A stretch of 64,000 nt of DNA from Nematostella vectensis (taxonomy: Eukaryota): contig NC_064039.1 in NCBI RefSeq assembly GCF_932526225.1, positions 6,257,459-6,321,458 on the forward strand, given 5' to 3'. Position 1 is the stretch's first letter. Each line of letters starts with the position of its first letter. The notes beneath the pieces were generated by a model, which was not told the DNA's origin, searched no databases, and worked only from the letters and a program-made list of their open reading frames with translations. Below, piece after piece: positions 44,701 to 62,498 of the stretch. A program made the position numbers and the translations under genes.

Positions 44701-44759
44701 GCTGCCAAATAAAATCATTGAATGAATTGAATTGCATACCATTTTAAGAATAGTGTTTT

Positions 44760-45748: not shown

Positions 45749-46255
45749 AGTAGTAGGGTTTTGGCGCAGCTGGCGCAACTTTTTGATCTCCCCAAATTTC
45801 ATTCCAAAAGTGGCGCAAAAGTCTCCGCACACCTCCGCCAAGCCTCGCGACCTGCGCATGCGCGAGTTTGCCAGAGATCTCTCGCACGACCAAGCCCACC
45901 TGTCAATCACTTTGTCACGTGACGGCCACGCCCACCTGTCAATCACTTTGTCACGTGACGGCCACGCCCACCTGTCAATCACTTTGTCACGTGATAGCCA
46001 CGCCCACCTGTCAATCATTTTGTAAAAAACCTGTCAATCACTTTGTCACGTGATGACCACGCCCACCTGTCAATCATTTTGTCAAAAACCTGTCAATCAC
46101 TTTGTCAAAAACCTGTCAATCACTTTGTCAAGAACCTGTCAATCACTTTGTCAAAAACCTGTCAATCACTTTGTCAAGAGCCTGTCAATCATTTTGTCAC
46201 GTGATAGCCAAGCCCACCTGTCAATCACTTTGTCACGTGCTGCACCTAGGGGGAG
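45749..46255 (+). repeat. Left terminal inverted repeat of the Maverick/Polinton element
   Basis: The outer ~150 bp are identical to the reverse complement of 62233..62382. They are followed by 12 copies of a subrepeat with core CCTGTCAATCA(C/T)TTTGTCA, in 36-bp (..GTCACGTGACGGCCACGCCCA..) and 23-bp (..GTCAAAAA..) variants. GCGCATGCGC lies at 45854..45863. Confidence 0.9.
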
Positions 46256-46270
46256 CCTGGGGGCTATTCT

Positions 46271-46281
46271 GGTCTAAAGAC
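46271..46281 (+). promoter_or_regulatory. Degenerate early-type box GGTCTAAAGAC upstream of ORF 46301
   Basis: It lies 20 nt before the ATG and carries one mismatch to GGTTTAAAGAC. Confidence 0.3.
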
Positions 46282-46300
46282 GTATGAGACCCTAGATAAA

Positions 46301-46561
46301 ATGACATTAAAGACGGAGGTGAAGATTAAAAACGGTGCGGCTACCGCCGGCGGTTGTTCGGTGCCGGAGGTGAACGTGAGTAACACTGCGGATGCGGGGC
46401 CTGAACACTGCTGTTGTAACGCTGATTACTATGAAGACTCAGAATACGGAAGCTTCGACCCCGTTGGGTTTGTGGCCGGAGCGGCGACAATTGTCCTTGG
46501 TGTTCTAGCAATGTTAGTCTCCATGCCACGGTATGGCGAAAAAAGATGGGTGAGATACTAG
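46301..46561 (+). CDS. Element ORF: small tail-anchored membrane protein (86 aa), function unknown
   Basis: ATG-initiated ORF just inside the left TIR. It is preceded by the degenerate box GGTCTAAAGAC (46271..46281). It has a C-terminal hydrophobic helix, VGFVAGAATIVLGVLAMLV. Confidence 0.35.
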   Translation: MTLKTEVKIKNGAATAGGCSVPEVNVSNTADAGPEHCCCNADYYEDSEYGSFDPVGFVAGAATIVLGVLAMLVSMPRYGEKRWVRY

Positions 46562-46652
46562 TCCACGGATGTGGTGCGGAGGCTTTAGACCGCACCGCCC
46601 CCACGCGGACCCCTTCGGAAGTCTTAGCAACCACACACATCACACCCAGAGG

Positions 46653-46674
46653 GAGCTCGAGGGGCTAGCCTCTC
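46653..46674 (+). other. Palindromic motif copy GAGCTCGAGGGGCTAGCCTCTC (upstream of the TFIIB-like gene)
   Basis: Non-coding copy, ~30 nt upstream of the early box. Confidence 0.6.
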
Positions 46675-46701
46675 AGCTTCACATCTAAAAAAGCTTTTGA
46701 A

Positions 46702-46716
46702 AAGTGGTTTAAAGAC
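46702..46716 (+). promoter_or_regulatory. Early-type TATA-like box AAGTGGTTTAAAGAC (TFIIB-like gene)
   Basis: TTTAAAG starts 26 nt before the ATG at 46734. It is part of a 46-nt block identical to the PolB upstream region. Confidence 0.6.
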
Positions 46717-46733
46717 ATGAACAGTTTAATAAA

Positions 46734-47660
46734 ATGGAGGAACGAACAGTTGAACGTACGGCTGAAGATCGGTCACCACCACCATATAATATCCTCGGCG
46801 GACCGGTGCCTGAGATTAACGCCCCCACCCTCATGCCGGAATTTGCACTGTTTGACCGAGCCCTCACCGAATACGAGACTAGTAGAGCCTCCTTGGGAGA
46901 CGAGGATAGTAGTAACACCCTTTGCAATCATGGCGACCTAGTCACAGAGGACGGGGTCACTAGTTGCTTAGAGTGCGGGGAACAGATGCAGCGCGTGATC
47001 GCGCACGAAAGGGAATGGGGTTTTTACGGACATTCCGACGGCGAACGGTCTTCGGATCCAAGTCGGGTCCAGGTACGTAGGTCTGAGGATAGAAATATTG
47101 ACAAGGATGTGGAGAACATGGGTTTTAGCGGGGTAATTGTATCCAAAGCTAACGAGATATACACTCAGGTGACGAAAGGCCAGATTTTTCGCGGCGACCC
47201 ACGGAAGGCGGTCGTCTTTGCGTGTATCTACTACGCCTACAAGATGTCCGGTAAGTGTCAGACACCGAAAACCTTGATGGAAACTTTTGGATTGAGCAGG
47301 AAGAGTTGCCTTAAGGGTCTAAAAATCTTTAGTATTAACGTGCCTAAAGATTACTTACTACACGGAACGTCTCCCACCGTCGTGGACCACATTCACGATG
47401 TGATGGATAGATTCTCGGCGTCCCCCGCACAGAAGGGAGAGGTGGTCCAGCTCTACTACAGATCTAAGAACCGCTCGTCTGAGTTGAATCGCGCTCGCCC
47501 ACAATCCTTTGCGGTCGCTTTAACCTATTACTGGGTACGGCTAAAGGGGGTCGATATTACACTTAAAAAATTCTCCGAAAGAACGGGCGTCTCCGAGTTA
47601 ACCATCAGTAGGAAAGCGAGAGAAGTGGCCACAGTCCTGGGTACGCCTGGTGTGGTATGA
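46734..47660 (+). CDS. Element-encoded TFIIB-like transcription initiation factor (zinc ribbon + B-reader-like segment + two cyclin folds)
   Basis: 308 aa. CNHGDLVTEDGVTSCLECG..REWGFY..SDPSRVQ parallels TFIIB CPNHPDAILVED..ICPECG..SEWRTF..KDPSRVG. RGDPRKAVVFACIYYAYKMSG..TLMETFGLSRKSCLKGLKIF parallels the first cyclin repeat ([42 protein letters not shown]). RARPQSFAVALTYYWVRLKGVDITLKKFSERTGVSELTISRKAREV parallels the second ([38 protein letters not shown]). The comparison is from memory of the TFIIB sequence, not a computed alignment. Confidence 0.8.
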   Translation: MEERTVERTAEDRSPPPYNILGGPVPEINAPTLMPEFALFDRALTEYETSRASLGDEDSSNTLCNHGDLVTEDGVTSCLECGEQMQRVIAHEREWGFYGHSDGERSSDPSRVQVRRSEDRNIDKDVENMGFSGVIVSKANEIYTQVTKGQIFRGDPRKAVVFACIYYAYKMSGKCQTPKTLMETFGLSRKSCLKGLKIFSINVPKDYLLHGTSPTVVDHIHDVMDRFSASPAQKGEVVQLYYRSKNRSSELNRARPQSFAVALTYYWVRLKGVDITLKKFSERTGVSELTISRKAREVATVLGTPGVV

Positions 47661-47749
47661 TGTTTCCTGATTTCCAGAGAAATCAGGATTTCCAGAAAAC
47701 TGTCAGTTCGGAGTAGATGTGAATTAACACGTCTAAAGAAATTCGAAAA

Positions 47750-47764
47750 AAGTGGTTTAAAGAC
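47750..47764 (+). promoter_or_regulatory. Early-type TATA-like box AAGTGGTTTAAAGAC (ankyrin gene)
   Basis: TTTAAAG starts 26 nt before the ATG at 47782. Confidence 0.6.
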
Positions 47765-47781
47765 GTGGATGTAATAACAAA

Positions 47782-48606
47782 ATGGATATGCAAAGTGCTG
47801 GAAGTCTTACAAATCTCACCGTGGAGGATCAAGCCGCCACCTTAGCGAGGTGGGGAGCCGCAGACTTTGACGCCGTTATGGAGCGCGCGGCGTGGGAGGG
47901 GTGCGTCGAGACCGTGAGGTTGTGTAAGAGTTGGGGTGCGACGGATTTCGAAAAGCCGATGGTCAGGGCCGCAATGAACGGCCACACCGAGATCGTTAAG
48001 ATGTGTTGTGAGTCGGGCGCCTGTGACTTCGTGTATCCAGCGTCCATGGCCGCGAAAGGCGGGCACGTAGAGGTTTTGAAGGTGATGGGCGAGTATTGTG
48101 CCGACGGAGGAGAGGCCATGACCGAGGCCATGGGTGCTGCGGCGGCGGAAGGTCAGGTGGGGGTTGTTGAGTTGTTGATAGATCTAGGTGTCGATGTCGA
48201 TGTCGGTTGGGCCACCGCTGAGGCGGCGTACAATGGGCACGTTGAGGTTCTGAAGCTGCTGAGAGAAAACTTCTGGGAGTTTGACCCGGACTATGCTATA
48301 ACACCAGCCATCGAATCTCGCAACCTCGAGATTGTGAGGTTGTGCTTGGAGTGGGGCGCGACCGATCTCATTGTACATATGAACTACGCACGGTTTTGGC
48401 ATCTGCATAAGATTTTCGCGGTGCTACGTGCGGCGTGGGGGTGGAGTCTTGTGCATGAGGAGCTCCCGGAGAAGCTACACAAGGTGAGATTCCGTAGAAA
48501 GCTGGAGGACGAACTAATGCCAGTAGCTTGGCATCCGGACAGGTTTTGGGATTGGTGCATGGATGAGCAAGAGAAGGAAATGTTGGGAGAATGCTTCGCC
48601 AGGTAG
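47782..48606 (+). CDS. Element ORF: ankyrin-repeat protein with a Trp/Cys-rich C-terminal tail
   Basis: 274 aa with about 6 repeats bearing the ankyrin signature: AAWEGCVETVRLC, AAMNGHTEIVKMC, AAKGGHVEVLKVM, AAAEGQVGVVELL, AAYNGHVEVLKLL, ESRNLEIVRLCLEWGA. The tail is VAWHPDRFWDWCMDEQEKE. The early-type box lies at 47750..47764. Confidence 0.75.
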   Translation: MDMQSAGSLTNLTVEDQAATLARWGAADFDAVMERAAWEGCVETVRLCKSWGATDFEKPMVRAAMNGHTEIVKMCCESGACDFVYPASMAAKGGHVEVLKVMGEYCADGGEAMTEAMGAAAAEGQVGVVELLIDLGVDVDVGWATAEAAYNGHVEVLKLLRENFWEFDPDYAITPAIESRNLEIVRLCLEWGATDLIVHMNYARFWHLHKIFAVLRAAWGWSLVHEELPEKLHKVRFRRKLEDELMPVAWHPDRFWDWCMDEQEKEMLGECFAR

Positions 48607-48647
48607 ACGCCGACCGGCTAGAAGGCGGGTATCGCGTGTTGGATTGA

Positions 48648-48663
48648 AAAGTGATTTAAGGAC
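48648..48663 (+). promoter_or_regulatory. Early-type box AAAGTGATTTAAGGAC (zinc-ribbon gene)
   Basis: It directly abuts the ATG at 48664 and lies 27 nt before the second ATG at 48682. Confidence 0.55.
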
Positions 48664-49011
48664 ATGACCGGTTTGATAGAAATGGAGAACCAAACGGTGA
48701 AAGACTCGAAAGTATCCCCCGTAAAGCGAACAACGGATTATAAGTGTCTTCATGGCAGAGTGAAATATTATTGCAAAGATTGTCACGGATCGCAAATCTG
48801 CCCTCACAACCGGAGAAAAACGCGGTGCAGAGAATGTAACGGCGGTAGCATTTGTGAGCACAGACGAGCAAGATATGTCTGTAAAGACTGCAAGGGGAAA
48901 GGGATGTGTGAACACAGCAAACAGAGACCCTTTTGTAAGTTATGCGGAGGGTCTCAAATATGCGAACACGATAGACAAAAGCACCATTGCAGAACGTGTA
49001 ACGGAAATTAA
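48664..49011 (+). CDS. Element ORF: tandem Cys/His zinc-ribbon repeat protein (putative nucleic-acid binding)
   Basis: 115 aa with four tandem units of C-x-H-x(4-6)-C-x2-C-x-G-x3: CLHGRVKYYCKDCHGSQI / CPHNRRKTRCRECNGGSI / CEHRRARYVCKDCKGKGM / CEHSKQRPFCKLCGGSQI / CEHDRQKHHCRTCNG. It shares the N-terminal MTGLIEMEN and the promoter with the PolB gene. The functional start may be the second ATG at 48682. Confidence 0.6.
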   Translation: MTGLIEMENQTVKDSKVSPVKRTTDYKCLHGRVKYYCKDCHGSQICPHNRRKTRCRECNGGSICEHRRARYVCKDCKGKGMCEHSKQRPFCKLCGGSQICEHDRQKHHCRTCNGN

Positions 49012-49026
49012 CATTGACCCACTCAG

Positions 49027-49053
49027 TTTTGTAACGCGTCTCACGTTACAAAA
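49027..49053. terminator. Perfect 10-bp stem hairpin at the convergence point of the plus and minus gene blocks
   Basis: TTTTGTAACG-cgtctca-CGTTACAAAA, 16 nt after the stop codon of the zinc-ribbon gene. A role in 3' end formation is speculative. Confidence 0.3.
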
Positions 49054-49208
49054 CACATACATTCCTAATCACCCTAACAACTAGCGATTCTGAAAATAGG
49101 TTTTGTATTTACATTGAGAGTTCGCGGTCGCCAGGGTGGTCTGGTATGCACGTGAACAGGTATTGTCTTCTTGCGGTACGTCACATCCGTCCACATGCAC
49201 CCCGCATG

Positions 49209-50735
49209 TTACCGGAATAGATACCAAGCTAAACCAGCCGTAAAGGCTGTGATCGTGACAAGGTTATTTTCGTGCTGCGTGTTCGTGGGTTTAATCACGT
49301 CCGGCTTTGGGTTAGTTTTCGCCTCCGGTTCCGGTTTGTGAGCCGTGACTGACTCGGTATGAGGTAACACAATCTTTGAATGACCCATATTATGTTTAGG
49401 GATCGTTTTTATCTCGTTATTTATCGGATTCAGCCCCAGTTTCATATCAGTGGTGGCTTTTTGTAACTTGTTATTATAGCCAGCGATCGAAGTGTTGTTA
49501 TTTATCACAAGATACGATGGACTTAACCAACAGCCGAGGGCGAAAGCTAGGTCTAGTTTTTGTCTCGCCTGTTGTAAAGCAAACTGATACCGTTGTATAC
49601 TTTTCGATATACTGTTTTCCACCACCGCGCTTTCGAAGAGTTTCGTGAAGACCTGTTTCGTTTCCTGAGCTGAACCGCTATCGCCGACGATTGACGACCG
49701 GGTCTGAACTTGCGCGCCTAGAATACAGTAGACAAAGGCTTCGATGCTCTGGTTTATCCTAGACAACCCAGCTTTGGTTAACCCCATTGATTTTTCCGGA
49801 AAGAACCACTCATACTGAAACCCAGTTCTAAGGTCTTTCAGGTACTCGATCTCAAAGTGATTCATGTGTTCGTGGTCGCTTTTGGCAGCGTCCCATTCGT
49901 CGTGTAATTGATCAATGGTGCCATAAGGCTTATACTTGTCGTTAGAAGATGACAAGCCGTGATAATCATAATTATAAACGTTCCCTAACCCGTGATTTAT
50001 CGGTCTGAGGAACCGGAAATCGTCACCAGTTCGGAATTCTGTTCTTAGTTTTTGGTAAGCCGCTTCGCTGTAAAAGTTTTTATTCCAACTAAAGAGCCTA
50101 TCTTTTGGAAGAGGGCATTGTAGCTCGTTTAATATTCGTCTGATAGTGAAAATGATGTGAAATCTGTAGAATGACCCCACTTGAGAGTCGTCAATCATGT
50201 CACGCGTCACACCACATCCAGCAGTCGCGCAAAACATAGCAAAATTTAAGGCTTGACTCCAATAACTGAGGTTTGGGGCGTCGAGCCACCTACTAGCCTC
50301 CTTTGCTGTTCTGAATACTAGCAAGCTGTCGGTGAATATGTCCCTAAAAACAAAGTGTGTCTTCACCTTTGGTGTTATAAAAACATTAAAAGAGACGTAA
50401 TTATTTCTCGTAGGGTTTTCGTCCCACGGCAATATCTTGTACTCTGCACGCGCGTCTAGTCTGTATTGTTTTGGGAACCCAAACAGTTGCTGGATCGTTT
50501 CCTTGTATGCTTGTGTGTCGTCGGCGACTAGAAAATCCTGGATATTCTCGGGTTTCCAGCTATTACCAGGGAAGTGATATAACGTTTTGACTAGATTCCC
50601 ATTCTTGTCGAATGGATCGTATTCGTCCCCATTGAAAACGAATTGCACATTGCCGTGCCCGTCGGCAGAGAACCTGAAGCGTGAGTAGTAGGGGTACCTT
50701 TTCACAAATTCTGTAAACTTCATCTTATATGACAT
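49209..50735 (-). CDS. Element ORF: 508-aa protein of unknown function with a C-terminal transmembrane anchor
   Basis: Long uninterrupted ATG ORF in the minus-strand gene block. The box GATTTAAAAAC lies upstream at 50743..50755. The C-terminus NLVTITAFTAGLAWYLFR is hydrophobic. I recognise no family motif. Confidence 0.6.
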   Translation of the reverse strand: MSYKMKFTEFVKRYPYYSRFRFSADGHGNVQFVFNGDEYDPFDKNGNLVKTLYHFPGNSWKPENIQDFLVADDTQAYKETIQQLFGFPKQYRLDARAEYKILPWDENPTRNNYVSFNVFITPKVKTHFVFRDIFTDSLLVFRTAKEASRWLDAPNLSYWSQALNFAMFCATAGCGVTRDMIDDSQVGSFYRFHIIFTIRRILNELQCPLPKDRLFSWNKNFYSEAAYQKLRTEFRTGDDFRFLRPINHGLGNVYNYDYHGLSSSNDKYKPYGTIDQLHDEWDAAKSDHEHMNHFEIEYLKDLRTGFQYEWFFPEKSMGLTKAGLSRINQSIEAFVYCILGAQVQTRSSIVGDSGSAQETKQVFTKLFESAVVENSISKSIQRYQFALQQARQKLDLAFALGCWLSPSYLVINNNTSIAGYNNKLQKATTDMKLGLNPINNEIKTIPKHNMGHSKIVLPHTESVTAHKPEPEAKTNPKPDVIKPTNTQHENNLVTITAFTAGLAWYLFR

Positions 50736-50742
50736 ATAAGAT

Positions 50743-50755
50743 GTTTTTAAATCAG
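50743..50755 (-). promoter_or_regulatory. Variant box CTGATTTAAAAAC (ORF 49209..50735)
   Basis: It lies 9 nt before the first ATG at 50735 and ~21 nt before the second ATG (MSYKM). Confidence 0.4.
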
Positions 50756-50813
50756 TCCTTTACGCATCTCAATTCATAGATCCATCCGACGGGAGTTCTC
50801 TCGTACAGAAATT

Positions 50814-51419
50814 TCACCGAGCGGGTCGACTCGCCAGGTCTTTCAAAATCTCTTCTCTTACTGTTTCCCTCAGCTTGGTAATGTTTACGTTTTTTTCGTC
50901 CTCTCTTACCGACTTTTGACGGATCTGGAGCTTTAGAGCCTCAAACTTGTCCACCTCGTTCAAGATTAAAGAGAACTCTTCGTCTGATATTTTGTTGTCT
51001 TTTAAAGCTTTAGAGACCAGGTCGCGTATGCTATTTACTTTTGCCTTTGCCATCGCCGCTGTTTGGTCGTGCTTGGAGACTTTTTGCGACAGCCGTTTAG
51101 AAACCGCCGCACAGCCTACAGACGTAAGACCGAAAACACCGGCCAAAGCACCCAACGGAACTCCGACGACGATACCAAAACCTGACAGAGAAGTCCCCAA
51201 ACCACTAGACCCAAGAATGACGGATAAGAGTCCTAAGACCACACTTAACTTTGAAAACACGCTCTGCCCTCGTTTATACTTTTTCCTCACGTTCTCGTAA
51301 TGTTTAACTTCTTGCTCCAAACTTCCCAAAACATCGTGGGTCTTTTGGAGTCTGAAGTTATCACCCGAGGGGCTGACCCCTCGGGGTACGTTCGGGTAGA
51401 TTGAGTTGTACTCTTCCAT
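50814..51419 (-). CDS. Element ORF: two-pass glycine-zipper membrane protein with a C-terminal coiled coil (201 aa)
   Basis: Central segment LSVVLGLLSVILGSSGLGTSLSGFGIVVGVPLGALAGVFGLTSVGCAAV, followed by a charged helical tail. The box CACTTAAAGAA lies upstream at 51442..51455. Confidence 0.6.
   Translation of the reverse strand: MEEYNSIYPNVPRGVSPSGDNFRLQKTHDVLGSLEQEVKHYENVRKKYKRGQSVFSKLSVVLGLLSVILGSSGLGTSLSGFGIVVGVPLGALAGVFGLTSVGCAAVSKRLSQKVSKHDQTAAMAKAKVNSIRDLVSKALKDNKISDEEFSLILNEVDKFEALKLQIRQKSVREDEKNVNITKLRETVREEILKDLASRPAR
51366..51384 (-). other. Related palindrome CCGAGGGGTCAGCCCCTCG inside ORF 50814..51419
   Basis: It shares the GAGGGG-N-CCCCTC arms with the other copies and encodes PRGVSPS. 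Confidence 0.4.
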
Positions 51420-51441
51420 AGCTTTATTATGGGGAGAATTT

Positions 51442-51455
51442 ATTCTTTAAGTGAT
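51442..51455 (-). promoter_or_regulatory. Variant box ATCACTTAAAGAAT (ORF 50814..51419)
   Basis: It lies ~25 nt before the ATG at 51419 and overlaps the stop codon of the penton candidate. Confidence 0.45.
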
Positions 51456-52070
51456 TTCTAAAATTAGACGTATCGGGTAGAGACCGCGCTCTATTGTGTT
51501 TCCGTCACCACCCTTTATACTAAGACGGAGACTACTCACGTAACCGACTGATGTGGTGCTAACCCGTACCGGATCGCTTGGATTGAGGTATATCTTTCCT
51601 TCATCAAGCTCTACACTTGCTAGGATTTGTGAGGGCGCCCCTTGTTGGAGGGAGTCAGACGCGTTCACAAGATCGCAGTGGATAAAAATAGCCTCGTGAC
51701 CTATCATCTTTATCTCGTGGCGAGTGTTTGCTTCCAGCTCCCTGGTCTTGAGTCCTAACAGGCAGGCGAGCGGCTCATTCAACGCGACGTTCCGGTGAAC
51801 TTCGAGTGACGAGTCTCTAATAGAGACTGACTTTTCACCAAGACGCATACCCCCATCTATTTGACGTTTTAGCGTCTCGATCGTATACTGCCCCGCGGGG
51901 ATCCTAAGGATAATGTTCTCACCGTCGGAGACCGTTCCCTCGCTTGAGAGACTGTTACAACGATTATGAAACGCACATCCTCGCAGCGCGATAAACCGCG
52001 GCTTTTCAATAGGTTGTTCTAAATAGACAGTAAAGTCACCAACGTTTCCTTCAATGTAGAGTAATACCAT
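51447..52070 (-). CDS. Element ORF: candidate minor capsid (penton, single jelly-roll) protein, 207 aa
   Basis: The size, beta-rich composition and position within the morphogenesis block fit a Polinton minor capsid protein. The motif AIFIHCDLV..S resembles penton-like proteins I recall from invertebrate Polintons. No structure prediction was possible here. Confidence 0.45.
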   Translation of the reverse strand: MVLLYIEGNVGDFTVYLEQPIEKPRFIALRGCAFHNRCNSLSSEGTVSDGENIILRIPAGQYTIETLKRQIDGGMRLGEKSVSIRDSSLEVHRNVALNEPLACLLGLKTRELEANTRHEIKMIGHEAIFIHCDLVNASDSLQQGAPSQILASVELDEGKIYLNPSDPVRVSTTSVGYVSSLRLSIKGGDGNTIERGLYPIRLILEIT

Positions 52071-52073
52071 TTG

Positions 52074-53096
52074 TTATGATTTCCGTCTCCTTTTAAATCG
52101 TTCTACGGAATACAGGACGACAGCGACGATGAGAAGCCATGCGTTTTTAGCTAAAAAGCCAACAACTTCACCTGCCGTTCTAAATATGAAACTAGCTATA
52201 GCACCAACCATTCCTGGGAGTATTTCTCCTAATTTTTTGCCTATTGTTTTCAGACCATTTCCAACACCTTTTGCAACACTAGTCAGCCCAGCTTTCAGAT
52301 TAGAGACAATAACACCGATAACAACGCCCACAGCGGTAACGACAGCAGCGACTGTAAATCCGTATTTCTTAAAAATCGCTTTGACACGATCTTTCAACGA
52401 CATTCTCTCTTCAAGATTTTCTCTCTCCAATTGATTCTCTTCCAAAGTCTCATCTATGACAGAATTTCTTTCGCTGAGCTCTTCATTTTTACGATCTATA
52501 GCTCTTAGTCTTTCTTGGTTAGTTGTTTCACTTCGTTCCTCATTATTTTTTCTCATTTGCTCGGTGTTTCTCTCTTCTTCTTCTCTGAGTGTATTACCTG
52601 TAGCGTCTAGTTCATCGAGTTGAATCTGAATTTGCTTGTACTTTCCGGATCTGATTTTGTCGTCAACACTCTTCCGCACCGTTCTATCCTCATTATACAA
52701 CCTTTCTGGTCTAGTCCAACCACCTTTTCTCGCAGAATAGAAGGAAATGAATTGTTTTCCTCTCTCATCCGTTGAAATCTGAACTAGATTTTCATCAAGA
52801 TCTGGATATTTCGATAACAAAAGGTCTACCCTAAGTGTGTCCGTTGAAGGAGAACCTCCCATATTCTGTAACTCCATGTACTCGGGGACAGCCCTCCCGG
52901 GGTTTCGTGTTTTCCATAAGTCAGTCAACCTCCTACTCACATAGCTTGCACCTCTACCAAATCTGTTTGAAATCCTTTCATTCCATGATTCTCTTCCCTC
53001 ACCATCGTTTGGAATAAGAGAGTCATAATCTTCGTCTACAGTAGTATTCAAATCTTCTCTACCTTCTTCTGTTGTGGGATCAAAATCTATATCCAT
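52074..53096 (-). CDS. Element ORF: coiled-coil protein with C-terminal multi-helix glycine-rich membrane domain (340 aa)
   Basis: A central E/R/N-rich heptad-like region (LREEEERNTEQMRKNNEERSETTNQERLRAIDRKNEELSERN) is followed by FTVAAVVTAVGVVIGVIV, ILPGMVGAIASFIF and AWLLIVAVVLY. The box GACTTAAAGATT lies upstream at 53121..53133. Confidence 0.6.
   Translation of the reverse strand: MDIDFDPTTEEGREDLNTTVDEDYDSLIPNDGEGRESWNERISNRFGRGASYVSRRLTDLWKTRNPGRAVPEYMELQNMGGSPSTDTLRVDLLLSKYPDLDENLVQISTDERGKQFISFYSARKGGWTRPERLYNEDRTVRKSVDDKIRSGKYKQIQIQLDELDATGNTLREEEERNTEQMRKNNEERSETTNQERLRAIDRKNEELSERNSVIDETLEENQLERENLEERMSLKDRVKAIFKKYGFTVAAVVTAVGVVIGVIVSNLKAGLTSVAKGVGNGLKTIGKKLGEILPGMVGAIASFIFRTAGEVVGFLAKNAWLLIVAVVLYSVERFKRRRKS
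52089..52100 (-). promoter_or_regulatory. Variant box CGATTTAAAAGG (penton candidate), inside the 3' coding end of the upstream gene
   Basis: It lies ~20-25 nt before the ATG at 52070 and is encoded within ..ERFKRRRKS* of ORF 52074..53096. Confidence 0.4.
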
Positions 53097-53120
53097 TTCT
53101 TATTTTGTTTGAAAATAAGA

Positions 53121-53133
53121 AATCTTTAAGTCG
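53121..53133 (-). promoter_or_regulatory. Late-type box CGACTTAAAGATT (ORF 52074..53096)
   Basis: It lies 34 nt before the ATG at 53096. Confidence 0.5.
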
Positions 53134-53140
53134 TGCCAGC

Positions 53141-53557
53141 TCATATCCACCTACTCGCTACATAGCCAAGGGCTAACATTCCACCTCCAACGTACGCCAT
53201 CTCTCCCATCTTTTGGTTGCTACTTGGTCTGTAGTAATCTGAGAGCTCAGGCTCTTTCAAATCAAAATCTGGATGTGTTTGAGCGTATAGTTTGAAAGCC
53301 TCATCCGTCTCTTTATCGTTCTCATCCGCACGAACTTTATCGTTGTATTGTTCAGTCAACCAATCCTGGTATTCCTGTCTTTTTTTCTGCCAATCACCCA
53401 TTGCTTGTTGATACTTTTCAAGCGCTTTATCGTGTCTTATTTTTTCTTTATCAACATGAGTAGCGTCAGAAGACAAGTATCTCGCTAGGTAACTCCCTCC
53501 GACAAACGCCGTCGCATTAATAAAAGCCCCACCAATCATAAATGCTATACTCGCCAT
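53141..53557 (-). CDS. Element ORF: small membrane protein (138 aa; N- and C-terminal hydrophobic helices)
   Basis: MASIAFMIGGAFINATAFVGGSYLA at the N-terminus and MAYVGGGMLALGYVASRWI at the C-terminus. The box GACTTAAAGATC lies upstream at 53575..53588. Confidence 0.55.
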   Translation of the reverse strand: MASIAFMIGGAFINATAFVGGSYLARYLSSDATHVDKEKIRHDKALEKYQQAMGDWQKKRQEYQDWLTEQYNDKVRADENDKETDEAFKLYAQTHPDFDLKEPELSDYYRPSSNQKMGEMAYVGGGMLALGYVASRWI

Positions 53558-53574
53558 TTATTAATCAATCTATA

Positions 53575-53588
53575 AGATCTTTAAGTCG
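53575..53588 (-). promoter_or_regulatory. Late-type box CGACTTAAAGATCT (ORF 53141..53557)
   Basis: It lies 28 nt before the ATG at 53557. Confidence 0.5.
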
Positions 53589-53589
53589 C

Positions 53590-53814
53590 CTACAGCGGTT
53601 TTGGCAAAATCTTTTGTGTTTCCAGATAATCTTTCAGATACATACTACCGGACAGGACAGCAACCCATTTAGCGTAGTTTGTAACACTTGACGAAGGGTC
53701 GCTGATGAATGACTCTTTCATAGCCTTTTTAGCAACATAACCCACGCCGGCGGCTAATCCGATGATGACTGCTGAGTCGGTGATCGTTTTCACAAGTTTG
53801 TTTTCAGTTGACAT
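53590..53814 (-). CDS. Element ORF: small membrane protein (74 aa)
   Basis: Hydrophobic segments AVIIGLAAGVGYVA and WVAVLSGSMYL. The perfect late-type box GTGATTTAAAGATT lies upstream at 53840..53853. Confidence 0.5.
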   Translation of the reverse strand: MSTENKLVKTITDSAVIIGLAAGVGYVAKKAMKESFISDPSSSVTNYAKWVAVLSGSMYLKDYLETQKILPKPL

Positions 53815-53839
53815 GATTTTATTTATTACAGATTCAGAT

Positions 53840-53853
53840 AATCTTTAAATCAC
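53840..53853 (-). promoter_or_regulatory. Late-type box GTGATTTAAAGATT (ORF 53590..53814)
   Basis: It lies 35 nt before the ATG at 53814. The 14-mer is identical to the one at 54335..54348. Confidence 0.55.
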
Positions 53854-54311
53854 AACATTCCTATTTTTGGCGTCGCGTTCGGGAGGCTAGCCCCTCGAGC
53901 TCCCCCTAGGTGGGAGGTGGGTCTCCCAAGAGTTTCGGCCTCGTTGACGTTAATCTTAGACGGCTCGCCCTCTTTCTTTTTGTAAAAACGCATATACATA
54001 TCCAATGCGGTGAGCCCTATTCCAACTAGAGCCAGTACAGTTGTAAACGATAGCTCTGGAATCCAAGCGTCCGAGAGGCTATCCCCTCGAGCTCCCTCTT
54101 GGTGGGGTGTCTCTGCTCGTGCAGCGTCTTCTGAACTCGCCTCCGCCTCGCGTTTCATCTCCCTAGCAAGTGCTTCTCTACACCTCCTATTATATTCGGC
54201 AACTCTCTTACCAGAAGCGACTTTTATAGGATCTTTCTCCTTAGCGGCACTCTTCTTCCTGGGGGGAGGGTCCTTTGTGATTTGCTCAACCTCTTGATTT
54301 TCGTCAGACAT
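53850..54311 (-). CDS. Element ORF: basic N-terminus plus single-TM protein (153 aa)
   Basis: K/R-rich N-terminus (PPRKKSAAKEKDPIKVASGKRVAEYNRRCREALAREMKRE), then a TM helix LSFTTVLALVGIGLTALDMYM. It contains two in-frame copies of the palindromic motif. The box GTGATTTAAAGATT lies upstream at 54335..54348. Confidence 0.55.
   Translation of the reverse strand: MSDENQEVEQITKDPPPRKKSAAKEKDPIKVASGKRVAEYNRRCREALAREMKREAEASSEDAARAETPHQEGARGDSLSDAWIPELSFTTVLALVGIGLTALDMYMRFYKKKEGEPSKINVNEAETLGRPTSHLGGARGASLPNATPKIGML
53883..53902 (-). other. Palindromic motif copy inside ORF 53850..54311
   Basis: The reverse complement reads GAGCTCGAGGGGCTAGCCTC, encoding GARGASL. It lies ~35 nt upstream of the late box for ORF 53590..53814. 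Confidence 0.6.
54075..54094 (-). other. Palindromic motif copy inside ORF 53850..54311
   Basis: The reverse complement reads GAGCTCGAGGGGATAGCCTC, encoding GARGDSL in the same codon phase as the copy at 53883. Confidence 0.55.
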
Positions 54312-54334
54312 GATTCTTTACTCACTGAATAAAG

Positions 54335-54348
54335 AATCTTTAAATCAC
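54335..54348 (-). promoter_or_regulatory. Late-type box GTGATTTAAAGATT (ORF 53850..54311)
   Basis: It lies 33 nt before the ATG at 54311. Confidence 0.55.
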
Positions 54349-54352
54349 ATCA

Positions 54353-54488
54353 TGCTCAAGAGCTTGCTCAGTTGTGCTCAAGAGCTTGCTCAGGTGTGCT
54401 CAAGAGCTTGCTTAGGTGTGCTCAGGTGTGCTCAAGAGTTTGCTTAGGTGTGCTCAGGTGTGCTCAAGAGTTTGCTCAGTTGTGCTTG
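54353..54488. repeat. Intra-element 22-bp minisatellite (GTGCTCAAGAGCTTGCTCAGGT, with 10-bp short variants), ~6 copies
   Basis: It lies in the spacer between ORF 53850..54311 and ORF 54454..54981 and extends into the last ~10 codons of the latter. Confidence 0.8.
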
Positions 54489-54981
54489 AAACTTCTTGAA
54501 GTTTGTTGGAAGTCTCCTGTGAAGGTGTTAGTTTAACATGCTTAGCGACCCGAAAGATGGCACTAGCAAGTGCTACCATCCTTCCTCCCTTCAATACCAA
54601 GAGACCTGCAAAGTTTGACAATTCGCGTTTAACCAACTCGTCGTTCTGTAAGTCTTTGCTAAGCGCTTCGGTGTCATCTACAGGAACCACGTAGGAAATG
54701 ACTTGAGACACCACTTGAAGTGCTGATTCTACTAATCCATCAGTAACTTGTTTGCCTAAGACAGTCTGGTAGCGAACAAAGTACTTTTCGACGTCTTTCG
54801 CCGGGAGCTTCTTGATGTCCCCTAAACTCATGTCCACACCAAGAAATTCCTTCGTAGTCCCAAGAGATGCGAGAATAGCCAGCGATTCTCGTTTGACTTC
54901 AACATCGTCTTCGAGAGGCTCACCCTTCGAGCTCCCCTTAGACTTAGGCTCCTCTTCCATATAATCCTCAATGCTTGCCAT
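54454..54981 (-). CDS. Element ORF: 175-aa acidic/helical protein, function unknown
   Basis: The ORF track starts at 55047. However, the early-type box AAGTGGTTTAAAAAC (55006..55020) lies inside that extension, 33 nt before the ATG at 54981 (MASIEDYMEEE..). I therefore take 54981 as the start. The protein contains no Cys, so it is not a cysteine protease. Confidence 0.55.
   Translation of the reverse strand: MASIEDYMEEEPKSKGSSKGEPLEDDVEVKRESLAILASLGTTKEFLGVDMSLGDIKKLPAKDVEKYFVRYQTVLGKQVTDGLVESALQVVSQVISYVVPVDDTEALSKDLQNDELVKRELSNFAGLLVLKGGRMVALASAIFRVAKHVKLTPSQETSNKLQEVSSTTEQTLEHT
54915..54934 (-). other. Palindromic motif copy inside ORF 54454..54981
   Basis: The reverse complement reads GAGCTCGAAGGGTGAGCCTC, encoding SSKGEPL in the same codon phase. 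Confidence 0.5.
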
Positions 54982-55005
54982 CTTATTTTGTAAGTAGACC
55001 AAGAT

Positions 55006-55020
55006 GTTTTTAAACCACTT
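55006..55020 (-). promoter_or_regulatory. Early-type box AAGTGGTTTAAAAAC (ORF 54454..54981)
   Basis: It lies 33 nt before the ATG at 54981 and directly follows a palindromic-motif copy. Confidence 0.5.
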
Positions 55021-55021
55021 C

Positions 55022-55043
55022 GAGGGGTCAGCCCCTCGAGCTC
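55022..55043 (-). other. Palindromic motif copy abutting the early box of ORF 54454..54981
   Basis: The reverse complement reads GAGCTCGAGGGGCTGACCCCTC, immediately followed by GAAGTGGTTTAAAAAC. Confidence 0.55.
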
Positions 55044-55670
55044 TCACCGCGTGGCAGGAATCTCCAAATAACGTTGGAATGGATGTCGTAGGCAGAAACA
55101 GAGTCTGGAATACTTTTCAGTTTTCAGCAGTTCTACAAACTTTTTACGAGTCTCAACGTCTAAGTCACCCCCATAATCTTCAAACAGTGTTTTGGTACCG
55201 ATTTGAGATGGATTATGGAATGTAACCACACAGGCGACGTTATCACGGAAGGGCTTTGCTATGGATGTTAATTGTTGCGTCAATACCCACACTGATAATC
55301 CTTCGTGTCTCCCTGAGAACGCTAAATTGATAAACTTGTTCGAGCGTTGCTTTAGATCTTTCGATACAGCACAGTCATCCAAAACGAGTAACGTATTTGT
55401 ACCAGAAAATAGCACCGCACAATCTGTTAGTAACTCGTTAATCTCATCGGTGTTACTAGCATCCGGCGATAATACCAAGAAACGTTTATCTCCGTGAGCA
55501 AATCTACGATAGGACTTGTTTTTCGCATAAGTCGGACAAATCAACACAATGTATTCAAACACATGCCGGAACGGCCCTCGGAGCTGTTCCGTGAGGTACT
55601 TTGTCTTCCCACAATTAGTAGGTCCTGTGATAATACAATGAAAAGGAACTTTTTCCCGTAATTCTTCCAT
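55044..55670 (-). CDS. FtsK/HerA-type DNA-packaging ATPase
   Basis: Walker A is IITGPTNCGKT and Walker B is LLVLDDCA. The size (~208 aa) and position next to the capsid gene are typical of Polinton and PRD1-adenovirus-lineage packaging ATPases. The ORF-track start at 55691 is a TTG; the first ATG is at 55670 (MEELREK), ~25 nt downstream of the box TATTAAAAAGGAC. Confidence 0.85.
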   Translation of the reverse strand: MEELREKVPFHCIITGPTNCGKTKYLTEQLRGPFRHVFEYIVLICPTYAKNKSYRRFAHGDKRFLVLSPDASNTDEINELLTDCAVLFSGTNTLLVLDDCAVSKDLKQRSNKFINLAFSGRHEGLSVWVLTQQLTSIAKPFRDNVACVVTFHNPSQIGTKTLFEDYGGDLDVETRKKFVELLKTEKYSRLCFCLRHPFQRYLEIPATR

Positions 55671-55691
55671 TCTTTTTGTATTATCACACAA

Positions 55692-55705
55692 GTCCTTTTT
55701 AATAC
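55692..55705 (-). promoter_or_regulatory. Variant box GTATTAAAAAGGAC (ATPase gene), overlapping the MCP stop codon
   Basis: It lies ~25 nt before the ATG at 55670. The MCP TAA stop codon is embedded in the box. Confidence 0.45.
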
Positions 55706-56937: not shown

Positions 56938-56961
56938 CTTTTATTTTAAGAAAAGAGAGAT

Positions 56962-56975
56962 AATCTTTAAATGAG
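56962..56975 (-). promoter_or_regulatory. Late-type box CTCATTTAAAGATT (MCP gene), overlapping the integrase start codon
   Basis: It lies 34 nt before the MCP ATG at 56937. The palindromic TTTAAA core sits in the 33-bp divergent MCP/integrase spacer. Confidence 0.55.
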
Positions 56976-61838: not shown

Positions 61839-61853
61839 GTCTTTAAACCACTT
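61839..61853 (-). promoter_or_regulatory. Early-type TATA-like box AAGTGGTTTAAAGAC (PolB gene)
   Basis: It abuts the ATG at 61838 and lies 27 nt before the second ATG at 61820. Confidence 0.6.
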
Positions 61854-61881
61854 TTCAAAAGCTTTTTTAGATGTGAAGCTT

Positions 61882-61902
61882 AGAGGCTAGCCTCCCGAGC
61901 TC
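61882..61902 (-). other. Palindromic motif copy (upstream of PolB, at the inner TIR edge)
   Basis: The reverse complement reads GAGCTCGGGAGGCTAGCCTCT and contains the perfect 12-bp palindrome GAGGCTAGCCTC. Confidence 0.6.
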
Positions 61903-62382: not shown

Positions 62383-62388
62383 TCCCTC
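62383..62388. repeat. Target-site duplication, right copy (TCCCTC)
   Basis: See the left copy. If 62383 is counted as TIR instead, the TSD is the 5-bp CCCTC. Confidence 0.75.
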
Positions 62389-62498
62389 AAGCATCTTAGA
62401 GAGCCCTCAAAAGAGAGACAAAAAAATAACACTTTGCAAATAAAAACAAATTCTAGGGTTGTTTAGAATAAGATTGATTTGGAATTTTATTAATAAAT

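What the first reader, a model, noticed from the sequence alone, without database searches (positions are those of the whole stretch)
46641..46740. One promoter-plus-leader cassette is reused for three genes (TFIIB-like, zinc-ribbon, PolB)
Seen in sequence:
- 46 nt (AGCTTCACATCTAAAAAAGCTTTTGAAAAGTGGTTTAAAGACATGA) are identical between 46675..46720 and the reverse complement of 61835..61880. In both cases a copy of the palindromic motif precedes them.
- The PolB and zinc-ribbon genes share the box plus the first ~45 coding nt: ATGAC(T/C)GGTTTGATAGAAATGGAGAAC.., giving MTGLIEMENLKVKD versus MTGLIEMENQTVKD.
- In the TFIIB-like gene the same leader has a 1-nt deletion (ATGAACAGTTTAATAAAATGGAG). 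The first ATG (46717) is therefore out of frame and only the second ATG (46734) opens the gene.

Inference: the conserved AAAATGGAG is the real initiator in all three genes, at 46734, 48682 and 61820. The cassette was spread by intra-element recombination or gene capture and gives strict co-regulation of polymerase and regulators.
Basis: seen in the sequence. Interest (0 to 1): 0.6.

Follow-up and report, generated by a model that had tools for sequence, protein, structure and literature searches.

The report
Maverick end-repeat promoter drives cargo genes
The repeated "promoter plus leader" is the inner edge of the terminal inverted repeat of a 16.6-kb virus-like Maverick/Polinton transposon in the sea anemone Nematostella vectensis. 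It carries the polymerase gene's promoter and first codons, and copies of it head the cargo genes at the other end, one of which is a transcription factor taken from a giant virus.

Summary
The 46-nt identity, the shared MTGLIEMEN start of the PolB and zinc-ribbon ORFs, and the 1-nt-shorter TFIIB-like leader are all present.

The context changes the reading:
- Window 45749-62383 is an intact Maverick/Polinton with ~500-bp terminal inverted repeats (TIRs) and a CCCTC target-site duplication.
- The PolB/TFIIB-like identity is the inner part of that TIR.
- In a related anemone element the TIR covers the PolB promoter plus 64 PolB codons, and the gene at the far end is the ortholog of this zinc-ribbon gene.
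- The core box TTTAAAGA is not specific to three genes. It lies 25-35 nt before the ATG of 12 of 16 genes here and 10-12 of 14-15 genes in three related elements.

- 105 of 120 PolB homologs start at the ATG2 equivalent (ME...).
- ATG1 is replaced by another codon, followed by an early stop, out of frame or absent in other copies and relatives.
- All 20 compared TFIIB-like sequences keep ATG2.

New finding: the TFIIB-like gene is 33 PolB-derived codons fused to a complete giant-virus-type TFIIB (up to 70% identity).

Which polymerase reads the box is unresolved. I rate this a new variant of a known kind, of moderate interest.

The parts
45749..62383 (.). Complete Maverick/Polinton element (16,635 bp), flanked by the 5-bp target-site duplication CCCTC (45744-45748 and 62384-62388)
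   Evidence: Termini AGTAGTAGGGTTTTGGCGCAGC on both ends and CCCTC on both flanks. Dense intron-less ORFs: rve integrase, A32-type ATPase, weak capsid hit, TFIIB, ankyrin. Synteny with L002, L003 and L070.
45749..46261 (+). Left TIR, outer part: unique terminus followed by an array of 23/36-nt units ACCTGTCAATCACTTTGTCA(CGTGAYRGCCAMGCCC)
   Evidence: Inverted-repeat pairs I1-I4, 92-97% complementary to 61894-62383. Global alignment gives 454 matches in 526 columns, with differences in unit number.
61894..62383 (-). Right TIR, outer part. It continues without interruption into the PolB cassette.
46246..46561 (+). Short cassette: degenerate palindrome, TCTAAAGAC box at 46273-46281, 3-codon upstream ORF ATG AGA CCC TAG at 46284-46295. 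It is followed by an 86-aa ORF (46301-46561) with a hydrophobic stretch. This is part of a block, 46262-46639, that is present only in the left arm.
46640..46754 (+). Long cassette of the TFIIB-like gene, which is the inner TIR on the left arm: palindrome 46653-46672, box AAGTGGTTTAAAGAC 46702-46716, ATG1 46717 (out of frame), ATG2 46734
   Evidence: (I5). The same structure is seen in a second copy, L066.
46734..47660 (+). TFIIB-like gene (308 aa). Codons 1-33 (46734-46832) derive from the PolB 5' end. From Met34 (46833) it is a complete giant-virus-type TFIIB.
   Evidence: Pfam PF00382, E 1.5e-8. Human TFIIB in the PDB, E 1.8e-5, aligned over the zinc ribbon and both cyclin repeats. Residues 19-35 NILGGPVPEINAPTLMP align with PolB residues 68-84. 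95 of 115 metagenomic homologs start at the residue aligned with Met34.
47716..48606 (+). Ankyrin-repeat gene (47782-48606) with its cassette: spacer CACGTCTAAAGAAATTCGAAAAAAGTGG, box 47750-47764, GTG in place of ATG1, one-codon upstream ORF ATG TAA at 47769-47774
   Evidence: Identical in L066.
48598..49011 (+). Zinc-ribbon gene (initiator 48682, stop 49011) with its cassette: degenerate palindrome overlapping the ankyrin stop codon, box AAGTGATTTAAGGAC 48649-48663, ATG1 48664 in frame
   Evidence: (I16). Orthologs are Rho_N + zinc-ribbon proteins whose N-terminus lies in the TIR.
54981..55043 (-). Short cassette of the 175-aa gene: palindrome 55024-55043, box AAGTGGTTTAAAAAC 55006-55020, ATG 54981
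50745..56971 (-). Generic boxes in front of the morphogenesis-module genes. Coordinates give the first base of each box on the minus strand: 508-aa 50751, 201-aa 51450, 207-aa 52097, 340-aa 53129, 138-aa 53584, 74-aa 53849, 153-aa 54344, major capsid protein 56971. Each lies 16-35 nt before its ATG.
61801..61915 (-). Long cassette of PolB, which is the inner TIR on the right arm: palindrome 61883-61902, box 61839-61853, ATG1 61838, ATG2 61820
57912..61820 (-). [quoted passage not shown]
   Evidence: Motifs DFE, NLSGYD, YLDANNLYG, KLMNNSVFGKT and FTDTDS are visible in the translation. Rho_N and Endonuclease_7 hits. More than 2000 homologs.

Best explanation
The cassette is the inner portion of the terminal inverted repeat of a Nematostella vectensis Maverick/Polinton.

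That portion holds the PolB gene's promoter-like region: an upstream GC-rich palindrome, an A-rich spacer, and the box AAGTGGTTTAAAGAC. It also holds a 17-18-nt leader, the PolB initiator and the first PolB codons. Because the repeat exists at both ends, the gene next to the other end gets a copy of the PolB promoter and begins with PolB-derived codons.

In relatives that gene is the zinc-ribbon gene. In the Nematostella lineage further cargo sits between it and the terminus: an ankyrin gene, a giant-virus TFIIB fused in frame behind 33 PolB-derived codons, and an 86-aa ORF. Each of these is preceded by a more or less decayed copy of the same cassette.

The core of the cassette, TTTAAAGA, is the generic gene-proximal promoter motif of the whole element family. 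Its first T lies 25-35 nt before almost every start codon, with an AT-rich spacer and an A at -3 and G at +4 around many ATGs. The ATG that abuts the box (ATG1) belongs to the promoter region and is not a start codon. Translation starts at ATG2.

Shown: the TIR geometry, the distribution and conservation of the box, the non-conservation of ATG1, the conservation of ATG2, and the chimeric structure of the TFIIB-like gene.

Inferred: that the box is a promoter, that transcripts start in the short spacer so that leaders are very short, and that cargo was added at the terminus by fusion to the TIR-borne PolB 5' end.
For: TIR:
- Outer arms 45749-46261 / 61894-62383 are 92-97% complementary.
- Inner arms 46640-46754 / 61801-61915 are contiguous with the outer arm on the right.
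- The target-site duplication is CCCTC.
- In the related element L002 the inverted repeat 2015-2305 / 15661-15951 (97%) spans 100 nt upstream plus 191 nt of PolB coding sequence. The far-end gene there is a 165-aa Rho_N + zinc-ribbon protein.
- That protein aligns with the window's zinc-ribbon protein at about 70% identity.

Generic box:
- In the window, 18 of 24 motif hits in the element fall 15-45 nt upstream of gene starts (0.36 expected), covering 12 of 16 genes.
- The counts in relatives are 10/14 (L002), 10/15 (L003) and 12/15 (L070).

ATG2:
- 105 of 120 PolB homologs start ME..VK, and the Rho_N domain begins at residue 2.
- ATG1 is ATA in paralog P0188, GTG in the ankyrin copy, followed by an early stop in L002 and L070, absent in L003, and out of frame in two TFIIB copies.
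- All 20 compared TFIIB-like sequences keep Met1, five have Val at position 34, and the 33-codon extension stays in frame.

Chimera.

Graded cassette similarity.
Against: - The left arm is not contiguous. A 378-nt block (46262-46639) with the 86-aa ORF separates the outer TIR from the TFIIB cassette, so on that side the cassette is a displaced inner TIR.
- Cassette similarity to PolB is not monotonic with distance from the terminus (TFIIB 17.9 > Zn 8.7 > Ank 4.7). A simple serial terminal-capture history does not fully fit.
- No transcript, start-site or protein data were available, so promoter function is inferred from position and conservation only.
- If the box is a canonical metazoan TATA box, the start site would be about 28-33 nt after its first T. 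That falls at or beyond ATG2 in the 26-27-nt cassettes, so the geometry is non-canonical.
- The null model for positional enrichment is uniform. It ignores that intergenic DNA is AT-rich, and overlapping motif variants were counted separately.
Confidence: 0.75

Rival explanations
1. One reading: a dedicated promoter-plus-leader module was copied by intra-element recombination to exactly three genes (TFIIB-like, zinc-ribbon, PolB). This makes them a strictly co-regulated early regulon, distinct from the rest of the element.
For: - The long form (palindrome, spacer, AAGTGGTTTAAAGAC) is confined to PolB, TFIIB, Zn and, more decayed, Ank.
- Structural genes use a shorter TTAAAGAT-type box with 19-25-nt spacers. 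An early/late split is therefore conceivable.
Against: - Two of the three copies are simply the two TIR edges.
- At least six genes carry the GAC/AAC-type box.
- The GAC versus GAT distinction is not conserved in L002, L003 or L070, whose PolB promoters read TTAAAGAA or TTTAAAGAT.
- No expression data are available.
Confidence: 0.15
2. The element-encoded, giant-virus-derived TFIIB is the factor that reads the boxes. It would replace host TFIIB on TBP-bound TTTAAAGA and set an unusually short box-to-start distance for host RNA polymerase II. The TIR promoter would then drive a positive feedback loop.
For: - The protein is an intact TFIIB, with zinc ribbon, linker and two cyclin repeats.
- It is kept as an intact 307-308-aa ORF in at least 33 distinct sequences. 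Its core evolves more slowly than the N-terminal extension (0.064 versus 0.166 differences per site).
- It is only remotely similar to cellular TFIIB (E 1.8e-5 to human TFIIB).
- The box geometry is non-canonical for a metazoan TATA box. In established knowledge, TFIIB influences start-site selection.
Against: - The related elements L002, L003 and L070 have the same box architecture, but no TFIIB gene in the 14 kb seen. L002's far-end gene is the zinc-ribbon gene. The box therefore predates the capture and does not need it.
- No binding or expression data are available.
Confidence: 0.15
3. Virophage-like dependence: the boxes are promoters of a giant virus that infects anemone cells or cells living with them. 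The Maverick would be transcribed by that virus's cytoplasmic machinery, as mavirus is by CroV.
For: - The closest relatives of the TFIIB-like core (50-70% identity) sit on 138-395-kb metagenomic contigs. One of these (L067), read over 21 kb, carries Rpb2, Rpb10, NIF phosphatase, UCH, SOD and HMG genes.
- The Nematostella clade falls inside their diversity.
- On one such contig, TTTAAA/TTAAAA peaks 21-35 nt before ATGs, in 13 of 28 genes. This is the same geometry as in the Maverick.
- Compact intron-less genes with a motif just before each ATG are typical of virophages. Papers on mavirus promoter motifs are PMC8547959 and 10.1101/068312.
Against: - The giant-virus contig has 28% GC, so TTTAAA is common there. 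A second contig (L001) shows the pattern in only 3 of 14 genes. The exact TTAAAGA 7-mer is absent from all 28 upstream regions of L067.
- No giant virus of cnidarians is documented in the material searched.
- A virophage would have no obvious need for its own TFIIB.
- The element has an rve integrase and dozens of germ-line copies, as ordinary animal Mavericks do.
Confidence: 0.1
4. ATG1 is used. MTGLIE would be a functional N-terminal peptide shared by PolB and the zinc-ribbon protein, and the 74-aa ORF from 46717 would be expressed.
For: - ATG1 is in frame in two genes.
- It has a purine at -3 (GACATGA).
- P0309, a zinc-ribbon ortholog, has a different 6-residue extension, MDIIIK.
Against: - None of the 120 PolB homologs starts with MTGLIE.
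- ATG1 is ATA, GTG, followed by an early stop, absent or out of frame in other copies and relatives.
Confidence: 0.05
5. The boxes are splice acceptors or processing sites. TTTAAAG|A would join a common leader to each ORF, adenovirus-style, rather than act as a promoter.
For: - Twelve minus-strand genes form a co-oriented array (508-aa gene to PolB), interrupted only by the plus-strand integrase. Ten of them carry an exact box, each ending in AG shortly before the ATG.
Against: - An A at -3 of the AG and a purine-rich upstream context (GAAAAGTGG) make a poor acceptor under the established YAG/polypyrimidine consensus.
- The same box precedes the terminal genes PolB and TFIIB and both divergently oriented genes (integrase and capsid protein), where no upstream donor exists inside the element.
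Confidence: 0.04

Closest known systems
Maverick/Polinton elements (polintoviruses) of animals, including the Polintons of Nematostella vectensis (PMC4028283 uses Polinton-3_NV; stony-coral polintoviruses in PMC11131425)
   Same: The gene set (protein-primed PolB, rve integrase, A32-type packaging ATPase, capsid genes), the long TIRs, the 5-6-bp target-site duplication, the size of about 15-20 kb and the many genomic copies.
   Different: The papers found and read describe none of the following: a conserved gene-proximal box in front of nearly every gene; a TIR that embeds the PolB promoter plus N-terminal codons and so heads the far-end gene; or a TFIIB cargo gene. No protease and no DNA_pol_B_2 Pfam hit was obtained here.
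Virophage and polinton-like-virus promoters (mavirus/CroV late motif; PMC8547959, 10.1101/068312, PMC10945749)
   Same: One short conserved motif sits immediately upstream of most genes of a small PolB/integrase element related to Mavericks. Intergenic regions are very short.
   Different: There the motif copies the helper giant virus's promoter and the host is a protist. Here the host is an animal, no helper is known, and the motif (TTTAAAGA) is TATA-like.
Yeast cytoplasmic linear virus-like elements pGKL1/2 (PMC6831550, PMC6211774)
   Same: Linear-type elements with TIRs and protein-primed PolB. Every ORF is preceded by a short upstream conserved sequence and has a very short, unconventional leader.
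   Different: Those elements encode their own RNA polymerase and capping enzyme and are cytoplasmic. This element encodes only a TFIIB-like factor and is integrated in the nuclear genome.
TFIIB of Nucleocytoviricota (listed as a core giant-virus protein in 10.1101/2022.05.25.493380)
   Same: The TFIIB-like core (from Met34) is 50-70% identical to about 275-aa TFIIBs. One of these, read over 21 kb, lies on a contig that carries RNA polymerase subunits. The native start position is retained.
   Different: Here the gene sits in a 16.6-kb Maverick without RNA polymerase genes. It is fused to 33 PolB-derived codons and is driven by the TIR promoter.
Eukaryotic TATA box with flanking TFIIB-recognition elements (established knowledge)
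   Same: TTTAAAGA is a TATA-like AT-rich octamer in a fixed position upstream of genes. G-rich bases (GTGG) flank it upstream in the long cassettes.
   Different: The first T is only 25-35 nt (26-27 nt in the cassettes) from the initiator ATG. The canonical 28-33-nt TATA-to-start spacing would leave no leader, or would start downstream of the ATG. GTGG does not match the SSRCGCC consensus of the upstream TFIIB-recognition element.

Membership tests
Maverick/Polinton | [quoted passage not shown] | tested here: inconclusive
   The canonical exonuclease and polymerase motifs (DFE, NLSGYD, YLDANNLYG, KLMNNSVFGKT, FTDTDS) are visible in the 1302-aa ORF, and there are more than 2000 homologs. However, Pfam DNA_pol_B_2 did not hit at E<=1, there was no PDB hit by phmmer, and there was no phage tblastn hit.
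Maverick/Polinton | Retroviral-type (rve) integrase | tested here: met
   PF00665, E 9.9e-8, 32.6 bits, exactly at the gathering score. The syntenic genes in L002, L003 and L070 also hit rve.
Maverick/Polinton | Long terminal inverted repeats and a 5-6-bp target-site duplication | tested here: met
   About 500-bp arms at 92-97% identity, identical termini AGTAGTAGGG, and CCCTC on both flanks.
Maverick/Polinton | Morphogenesis module: double-jelly-roll major capsid protein, penton protein, A32/FtsK-type ATPase, adenain-like protease | tested here: inconclusive
   ATPase met (PF04665, E 4.6e-11). The 412-aa protein gives only a sub-threshold Capsid_N hit (E 0.0036). No penton or protease hit was obtained. 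No structure prediction was run.
TFIIB family | N-terminal zinc ribbon plus two cyclin-like repeats | tested here: met
   PF00382 at 35 bits (cut-off 23.6) for repeat 1. The alignment to human TFIIB covers residues 122-296 (both repeats) and the ribbon segment CNH...CLEC against CPNH...CPEC.
Giant-virus (Nucleocytoviricota) TFIIB clade | Closest relatives are encoded on giant-virus genomes and share the same domain limits | tested here: met
   50-70% identity to 115 metagenomic proteins of about 275 aa. Contig L067, 138 kb and 28% GC, carries Rpb2, Rpb10 and other virus-typical genes. UniRef labels one homolog 'viral metagenome'. In a rough NJ tree the Nematostella clade sits four nodes in from the midpoint root. 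95 of 115 homologs start at the residue aligned with Met34. The tree is rough and no reference isolate was included.
Canonical TATA-box core promoter (Pol II) | TATA-like octamer whose first T lies about 28-33 nt upstream of the transcription start site | not testable with these tools
   No start-site data. The box-to-ATG distances of 25-35 nt would imply leaders of 0-6 nt, or starts downstream of ATG2 in the cassettes.
Virophage-type promoter mimicry | The same motif in front of the element's genes and of a helper giant virus's genes | tested here: inconclusive
   TTTAAA/TTAAAA peaks 21-35 nt before ATG on giant-virus contig L067 (13 of 28 genes), but on L001 only 3 of 14 genes show it, and TTAAAGA itself is absent from all 28 L067 upstream regions. 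No helper virus has been identified.

The most novel reading that the evidence does not exclude
An animal Maverick has taken a complete TFIIB from a giant virus and expresses it from its terminal-repeat promoter as a working initiation factor. This factor would direct a polymerase to the element's own TTTAAAGA boxes, either host Pol II with shifted start-site geometry or the RNA polymerase of a co-infecting giant virus. That would make it the first Maverick with a self-encoded general transcription factor. It would also be evidence that Mavericks and giant viruses meet inside cnidarian cells, that is, a virophage-like relationship in an animal.
Probability: 0.15. Interest if true: 0.85.

Novelty: new variant of a known kind. 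Interest (0 to 1): 0.5.

Why it matters
Mavericks/Polintons are thought to be ancestors or close kin of virophages, adenoviruses and giant viruses, yet how animal Mavericks are transcribed is essentially unknown. This family offers three things:
- A simple, testable promoter grammar: one box 25-35 nt before nearly every ATG, conserved across sea-anemone species.
- A concrete mechanism for cargo acquisition: in-frame fusion to the PolB 5' end that lies inside the terminal repeat, so any gene landing next to a terminus is expressed.
- A recent gene transfer from a giant virus into an animal Maverick, which implies that the two kinds of virus have shared a cell.

Nematostella is a laboratory model with transgenesis and abundant RNA data, so all three points can be tested directly.

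Tried and rejected
- Retrieving other Nematostella copies by exact protein look-up failed. This applied to the window's UMP synthase, TFIIB-like and 115-aa zinc-ribbon proteins and to NCBI paralogs P0001, P0002 and P0005. Only a 1.2-kb metagenomic copy, L066, was obtained.
- A metagenome scan for the degenerate cassette pattern gave 0 hits.
- A viral-contig scan for the 16-mer AAAGTGGTTTAAAGAC gave 62 single, unrelated hits, consistent with chance.
- The 15-mer box alone is only marginally enriched in the whole window (7 hits against 3.2 expected; 5 of 100 shuffles reach 7). Its position relative to genes is what is non-random, not its count. Host and element densities are 0.92 and 1.44 per kb.
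- Rfam gathering-threshold search of 45-63 kb found no known RNA family at the cassettes.
- The GC-rich palindrome is absent from L002, L003 and L070, so it is not part of the family-wide promoter.
- A PDB phmmer search and a phage tblastn search with PolB gave nothing.
- Literature searches found no description of TFIIB in Polintons or of a Maverick promoter box, and nothing on miR-9460.
- Rejected: chance similarity, a terminator or poly(A) function of the box (it also precedes the terminal genes), and a replication-origin role (it occurs at every gene).
Full report
**1. The observation**

The three sequence statements are correct.
- 46675-46720 equals the reverse complement of 61835-61880, 46 of 46 nt.
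- The zinc-ribbon ORF from 48664 and the PolB ORF from 61838 (minus strand) share ATGAC(C/T)GGTTTGATAGAAATGGAGAAC. They translate to MTGLIEMENQTVKD and MTGLIEMENLKVKD.
- The TFIIB-like leader is one base shorter, so ATG 46717 is out of frame with ATG 46734.
- The 20-nt palindromic motif GAGCTCGAGGGGCTAGCCTC precedes both long copies. It occurs six times in the window against none in 100 shuffles.
- Alignment z-scores against shuffled sequence are 17.9 (TFIIB-PolB), 8.7 (Zn-PolB), 7.5 (TFIIB-Zn) and 5.5 (TFIIB-Ank).

**2. What surrounds it**

- 45749-62383 is a complete Maverick/Polinton. Both termini read AGTAGTAGGGTTTTGGCGCAGC and both flanks read CCCTC.
- The outer ~500 bp of each end are inverted repeats at 92-97% identity, built from 23/36-nt tandem units.
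- Between them lie about 16 tightly packed intron-less ORFs. Pfam identifies:
  - an rve integrase;
  - an A32-type ATPase;
  - a weak capsid match;
  - an ankyrin protein;
  - a TFIIB-repeat protein.
- The 1302-aa ORF shows the family-B polymerase motifs in its sequence, although Pfam, PDB and phage searches did not hit it.
- The host is Nematostella vectensis. The TFIIB-like protein is 96% identical to 'transcription initiation factor IIB-like [Nematostella vectensis]', and its 90% cluster holds 33 distinct sequences on many chromosomes.

**3. Why PolB and the TFIIB-like gene share 46 identical bases**

- On the right arm the TIR runs without interruption from the tandem units through the palindrome, spacer, box, leader and the first seven PolB codons, down to 61801.
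- The left arm has the same inner segment at 46640-46754, with 99 of 116 columns identical. It is displaced inward by a 378-nt block that carries an 86-aa ORF with its own shortened palindrome-plus-box.
- The 'cassette' is therefore the inner TIR.
- A relative confirms this is a family trait. In L002 (PolB 75% identical, syntenic) the inverted repeat covers 100 nt upstream and 191 nt, or 64 codons, of PolB. The far-end gene is a 165-aa Rho_N + zinc-ribbon protein whose N-terminus is PolB's.

**4. The third copy**

- The window's zinc-ribbon protein is the ortholog of that far-end gene. It is 64-72% identical to Rho_N + zinc-ribbon proteins of 156-177 aa. It has lost the Rho_N segment and keeps only MENQTVKD.
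- Its cassette (48598-48712) is therefore best read as an older inner-TIR copy.
- The ankyrin gene has a still more decayed copy, with the same box and a recognisable spacer.
- The order of similarity is not monotonic with position, so the history is more complex than one-by-one terminal addition.

**5. The box is generic**

- TTAAAGA or TTTAAA(A/G) lies 15-45 nt, mostly 25-35 nt, before the ATG of 12 of 16 genes in the element. 18 of the 24 motif hits in the element fall in those windows, which make up 1.5% of strand positions (0.36 expected).
- Two further genes have one-mismatch versions.
- The same holds in L002 (10/14), L003 (10/15) and L070 (12/15), elements with 66-75% PolB identity from other ENA assemblies.
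- The overall density of the motif is similar in host and element. Its position is what is special.
- The enrichment statistic uses a uniform null and counts overlapping variants, so the P-values are inflated, but the pattern is plain by eye.
- The GC-rich palindrome is specific to the Nematostella lineage.

**6. Which ATG**

For PolB:
- 105 of 120 homologs begin ME(N/K/E)..VK at the ATG2 equivalent.
- The Rho_N/SAP-like domain starts at residue 2.
- The one Nematostella paralog that reads through the region has ATA where ATG1 would be (ESWFKDITGLIE).

An ATG directly after the box recurs in several PolB promoters, but with no conserved reading frame:
- L002 has ATG CAT ATA TAA.
- L070 has ATG ATT TGT TAG.
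- L003 has none.

In other cassettes of the window, the ankyrin copy has GTG in its place and the 86-aa cassette has a 3-codon upstream ORF.

For the TFIIB-like gene:
- All 20 compared sequences keep Met1.
- Five have Val in place of the internal Met34.
- The 33-codon extension stays in frame, although it evolves 2.6 times faster than the core.

**7. The TFIIB-like gene is a chimera**

- Residues 19-35 (NILGGPVPEINAPTLMP) align with PolB residues 68-84 (SILDGPIPEINVPILKP), and the DNA aligns too.
- From Met34 on, the protein is 50-70% identical to about 275-aa TFIIBs. 95 of 115 of these start exactly at the residue aligned with Met34.
- Those homologs come from metagenomic contigs of up to 395 kb. 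A 138-kb contig, read over 21 kb and with 28% GC, carries Rpb2, Rpb10, a NIF phosphatase, UCH, SOD and HMG genes. One homolog is labelled 'viral metagenome' in UniRef.
- Identity between the Nematostella protein and these (median 59%, maximum 71%) is within the range they show among themselves (median 68%, minimum 53%). In a rough NJ tree the Nematostella clade sits four nodes in from the midpoint root.
- Similarity to human TFIIB is only E 1.8e-5, so the gene is not a copy of the host's TFIIB.
- A complete giant-virus TFIIB, with its own start codon, was therefore inserted in frame behind a PolB 5' fragment next to the terminus.

**8. How it most likely works**

- Shown: the TIR carries the PolB promoter region and start. 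The far end re-uses it. The box is the common motif of the family. ATG2 is conserved.
- Inferred: the box nucleates transcription initiation a few bases downstream, giving very short leaders and leaving ATG1 outside the mRNA. The A(-3)/G(+4) context around many ATGs fits eukaryotic initiation.
- Who reads the box is open:
  - For a canonical Pol II TATA box the spacing is too short in the cassettes (26-27 nt from the first T to ATG2).
  - Relatives have the box without a TFIIB gene in the part seen, so the captured factor is not generally required.
  - A giant-virus contig shows a TTTAAA peak at the same distance from its ATGs, in 13 of 28 genes. That genome is very AT-rich and a second contig does not show the pattern.

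**9. Comparison with known systems**

- Membership in Maverick/Polinton is supported by the integrase, ATPase, TIR and target-site duplication. It is supported by sequence motifs only for PolB. The capsid, penton and protease are unconfirmed.
- The promoter arrangement works like those of virophages and of yeast linear virus-like elements, which have one short motif before every ORF. Neither a helper virus nor an element-encoded polymerase is present here.
- I found no paper describing a promoter box in animal Mavericks, a TIR-embedded PolB start that heads the far-end gene, or a TFIIB cargo.

**10. Verdict**

- The underlying object is a known kind of element with new features.
- Interest is moderate. 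It would be high if the giant-virus link turns out to be functional.

Noticed in passing
window 46833-47660 (within the gene 46734-47660): The TFIIB-like core is a complete giant-virus-type TFIIB, 50-70% identical to about 275-aa proteins on 138-395-kb metagenomic contigs. One of these, read over 21 kb, carries Rpb2 and Rpb10. The core is fused behind 33 PolB-derived codons. No equally close homolog was seen in other anemone assemblies.
   Followed up: partly
window 57195-57262 (+): A full-length Rfam match to the mir-9460 microRNA precursor family (102.9 bits, gathering score 85) lies inside the rve integrase ORF. This suggests that the annotated microRNA derives from this Maverick family, or is a small-RNA-producing hairpin of it.
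   Followed up: no
window 45890-46240 and 61915-62260: The outer TIRs are arrays of about 13 units ACCTGTCAATCACTTTGTCA, alternating with a CACGTG-containing 16-nt extension. The relative L003 has unrelated 19-nt AT-rich tandem units at the equivalent place. These may be protein-binding arrays at the termini.
   Followed up: no
window 46246, 46653, 53883, 54075, 54915, 55024, 61883: Seven oriented copies of a GC-rich multi-palindrome, CACCYAGRGGGAGCTCGAGGGGCTAGCCTC, with a predicted hairpin of -15 to -21 kcal/mol. Two copies lie in frame inside ORF 53850-54311, where they encode GARGxSL, and one lies inside the 175-aa ORF. The motif is absent from the related elements L002, L003 and L070.
   Followed up: partly
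window 54343-54488: A tandem array of 10/12-nt TGCTCA-type units lies between the 175-aa and 153-aa genes. Similar 'tgagca' units sit upstream of the orthologous gene in L002.
   Followed up: no
window 56938-56973: The capsid and integrase genes diverge from a 33-nt intergenic region. The integrase ATG (56971) overlaps the reverse complement of the capsid gene's box (ATCTTTAAATGAG).
   Followed up: no
L002 15354-15851 and window 48682-49011: PolB, the far-end zinc-ribbon proteins and the TFIIB-like protein all share a short N-terminal motif, (N/S)ILD(E/G)PIPEINVP, downstream of the Rho_N/SAP-like domain. It is kept at the protein level in three different proteins and its function is unknown.
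   Followed up: partly
window 49209-53096: No Pfam match was obtained for an adenain/Ulp1-type protease or a penton protein. The 508-aa, 340-aa, 207-aa and 201-aa ORFs are unassigned.
   Followed up: partly
window 43800-45740 and 62498-62978: The element sits in repetitive host DNA: direct repeats of about 547 nt on the left and 161-nt tandem repeats on the right.
   Followed up: no
window 17231-18664 (+): An intron-less 477-aa ORF for UMP synthase (phosphoribosyltransferase plus OMP decarboxylase domains) lies in the host part.
   Followed up: no
window 36001-38000: Strong strand-composition anomaly (GC skew -0.54, AT skew -0.28) with overlapping ORFs on both strands.
   Followed up: no
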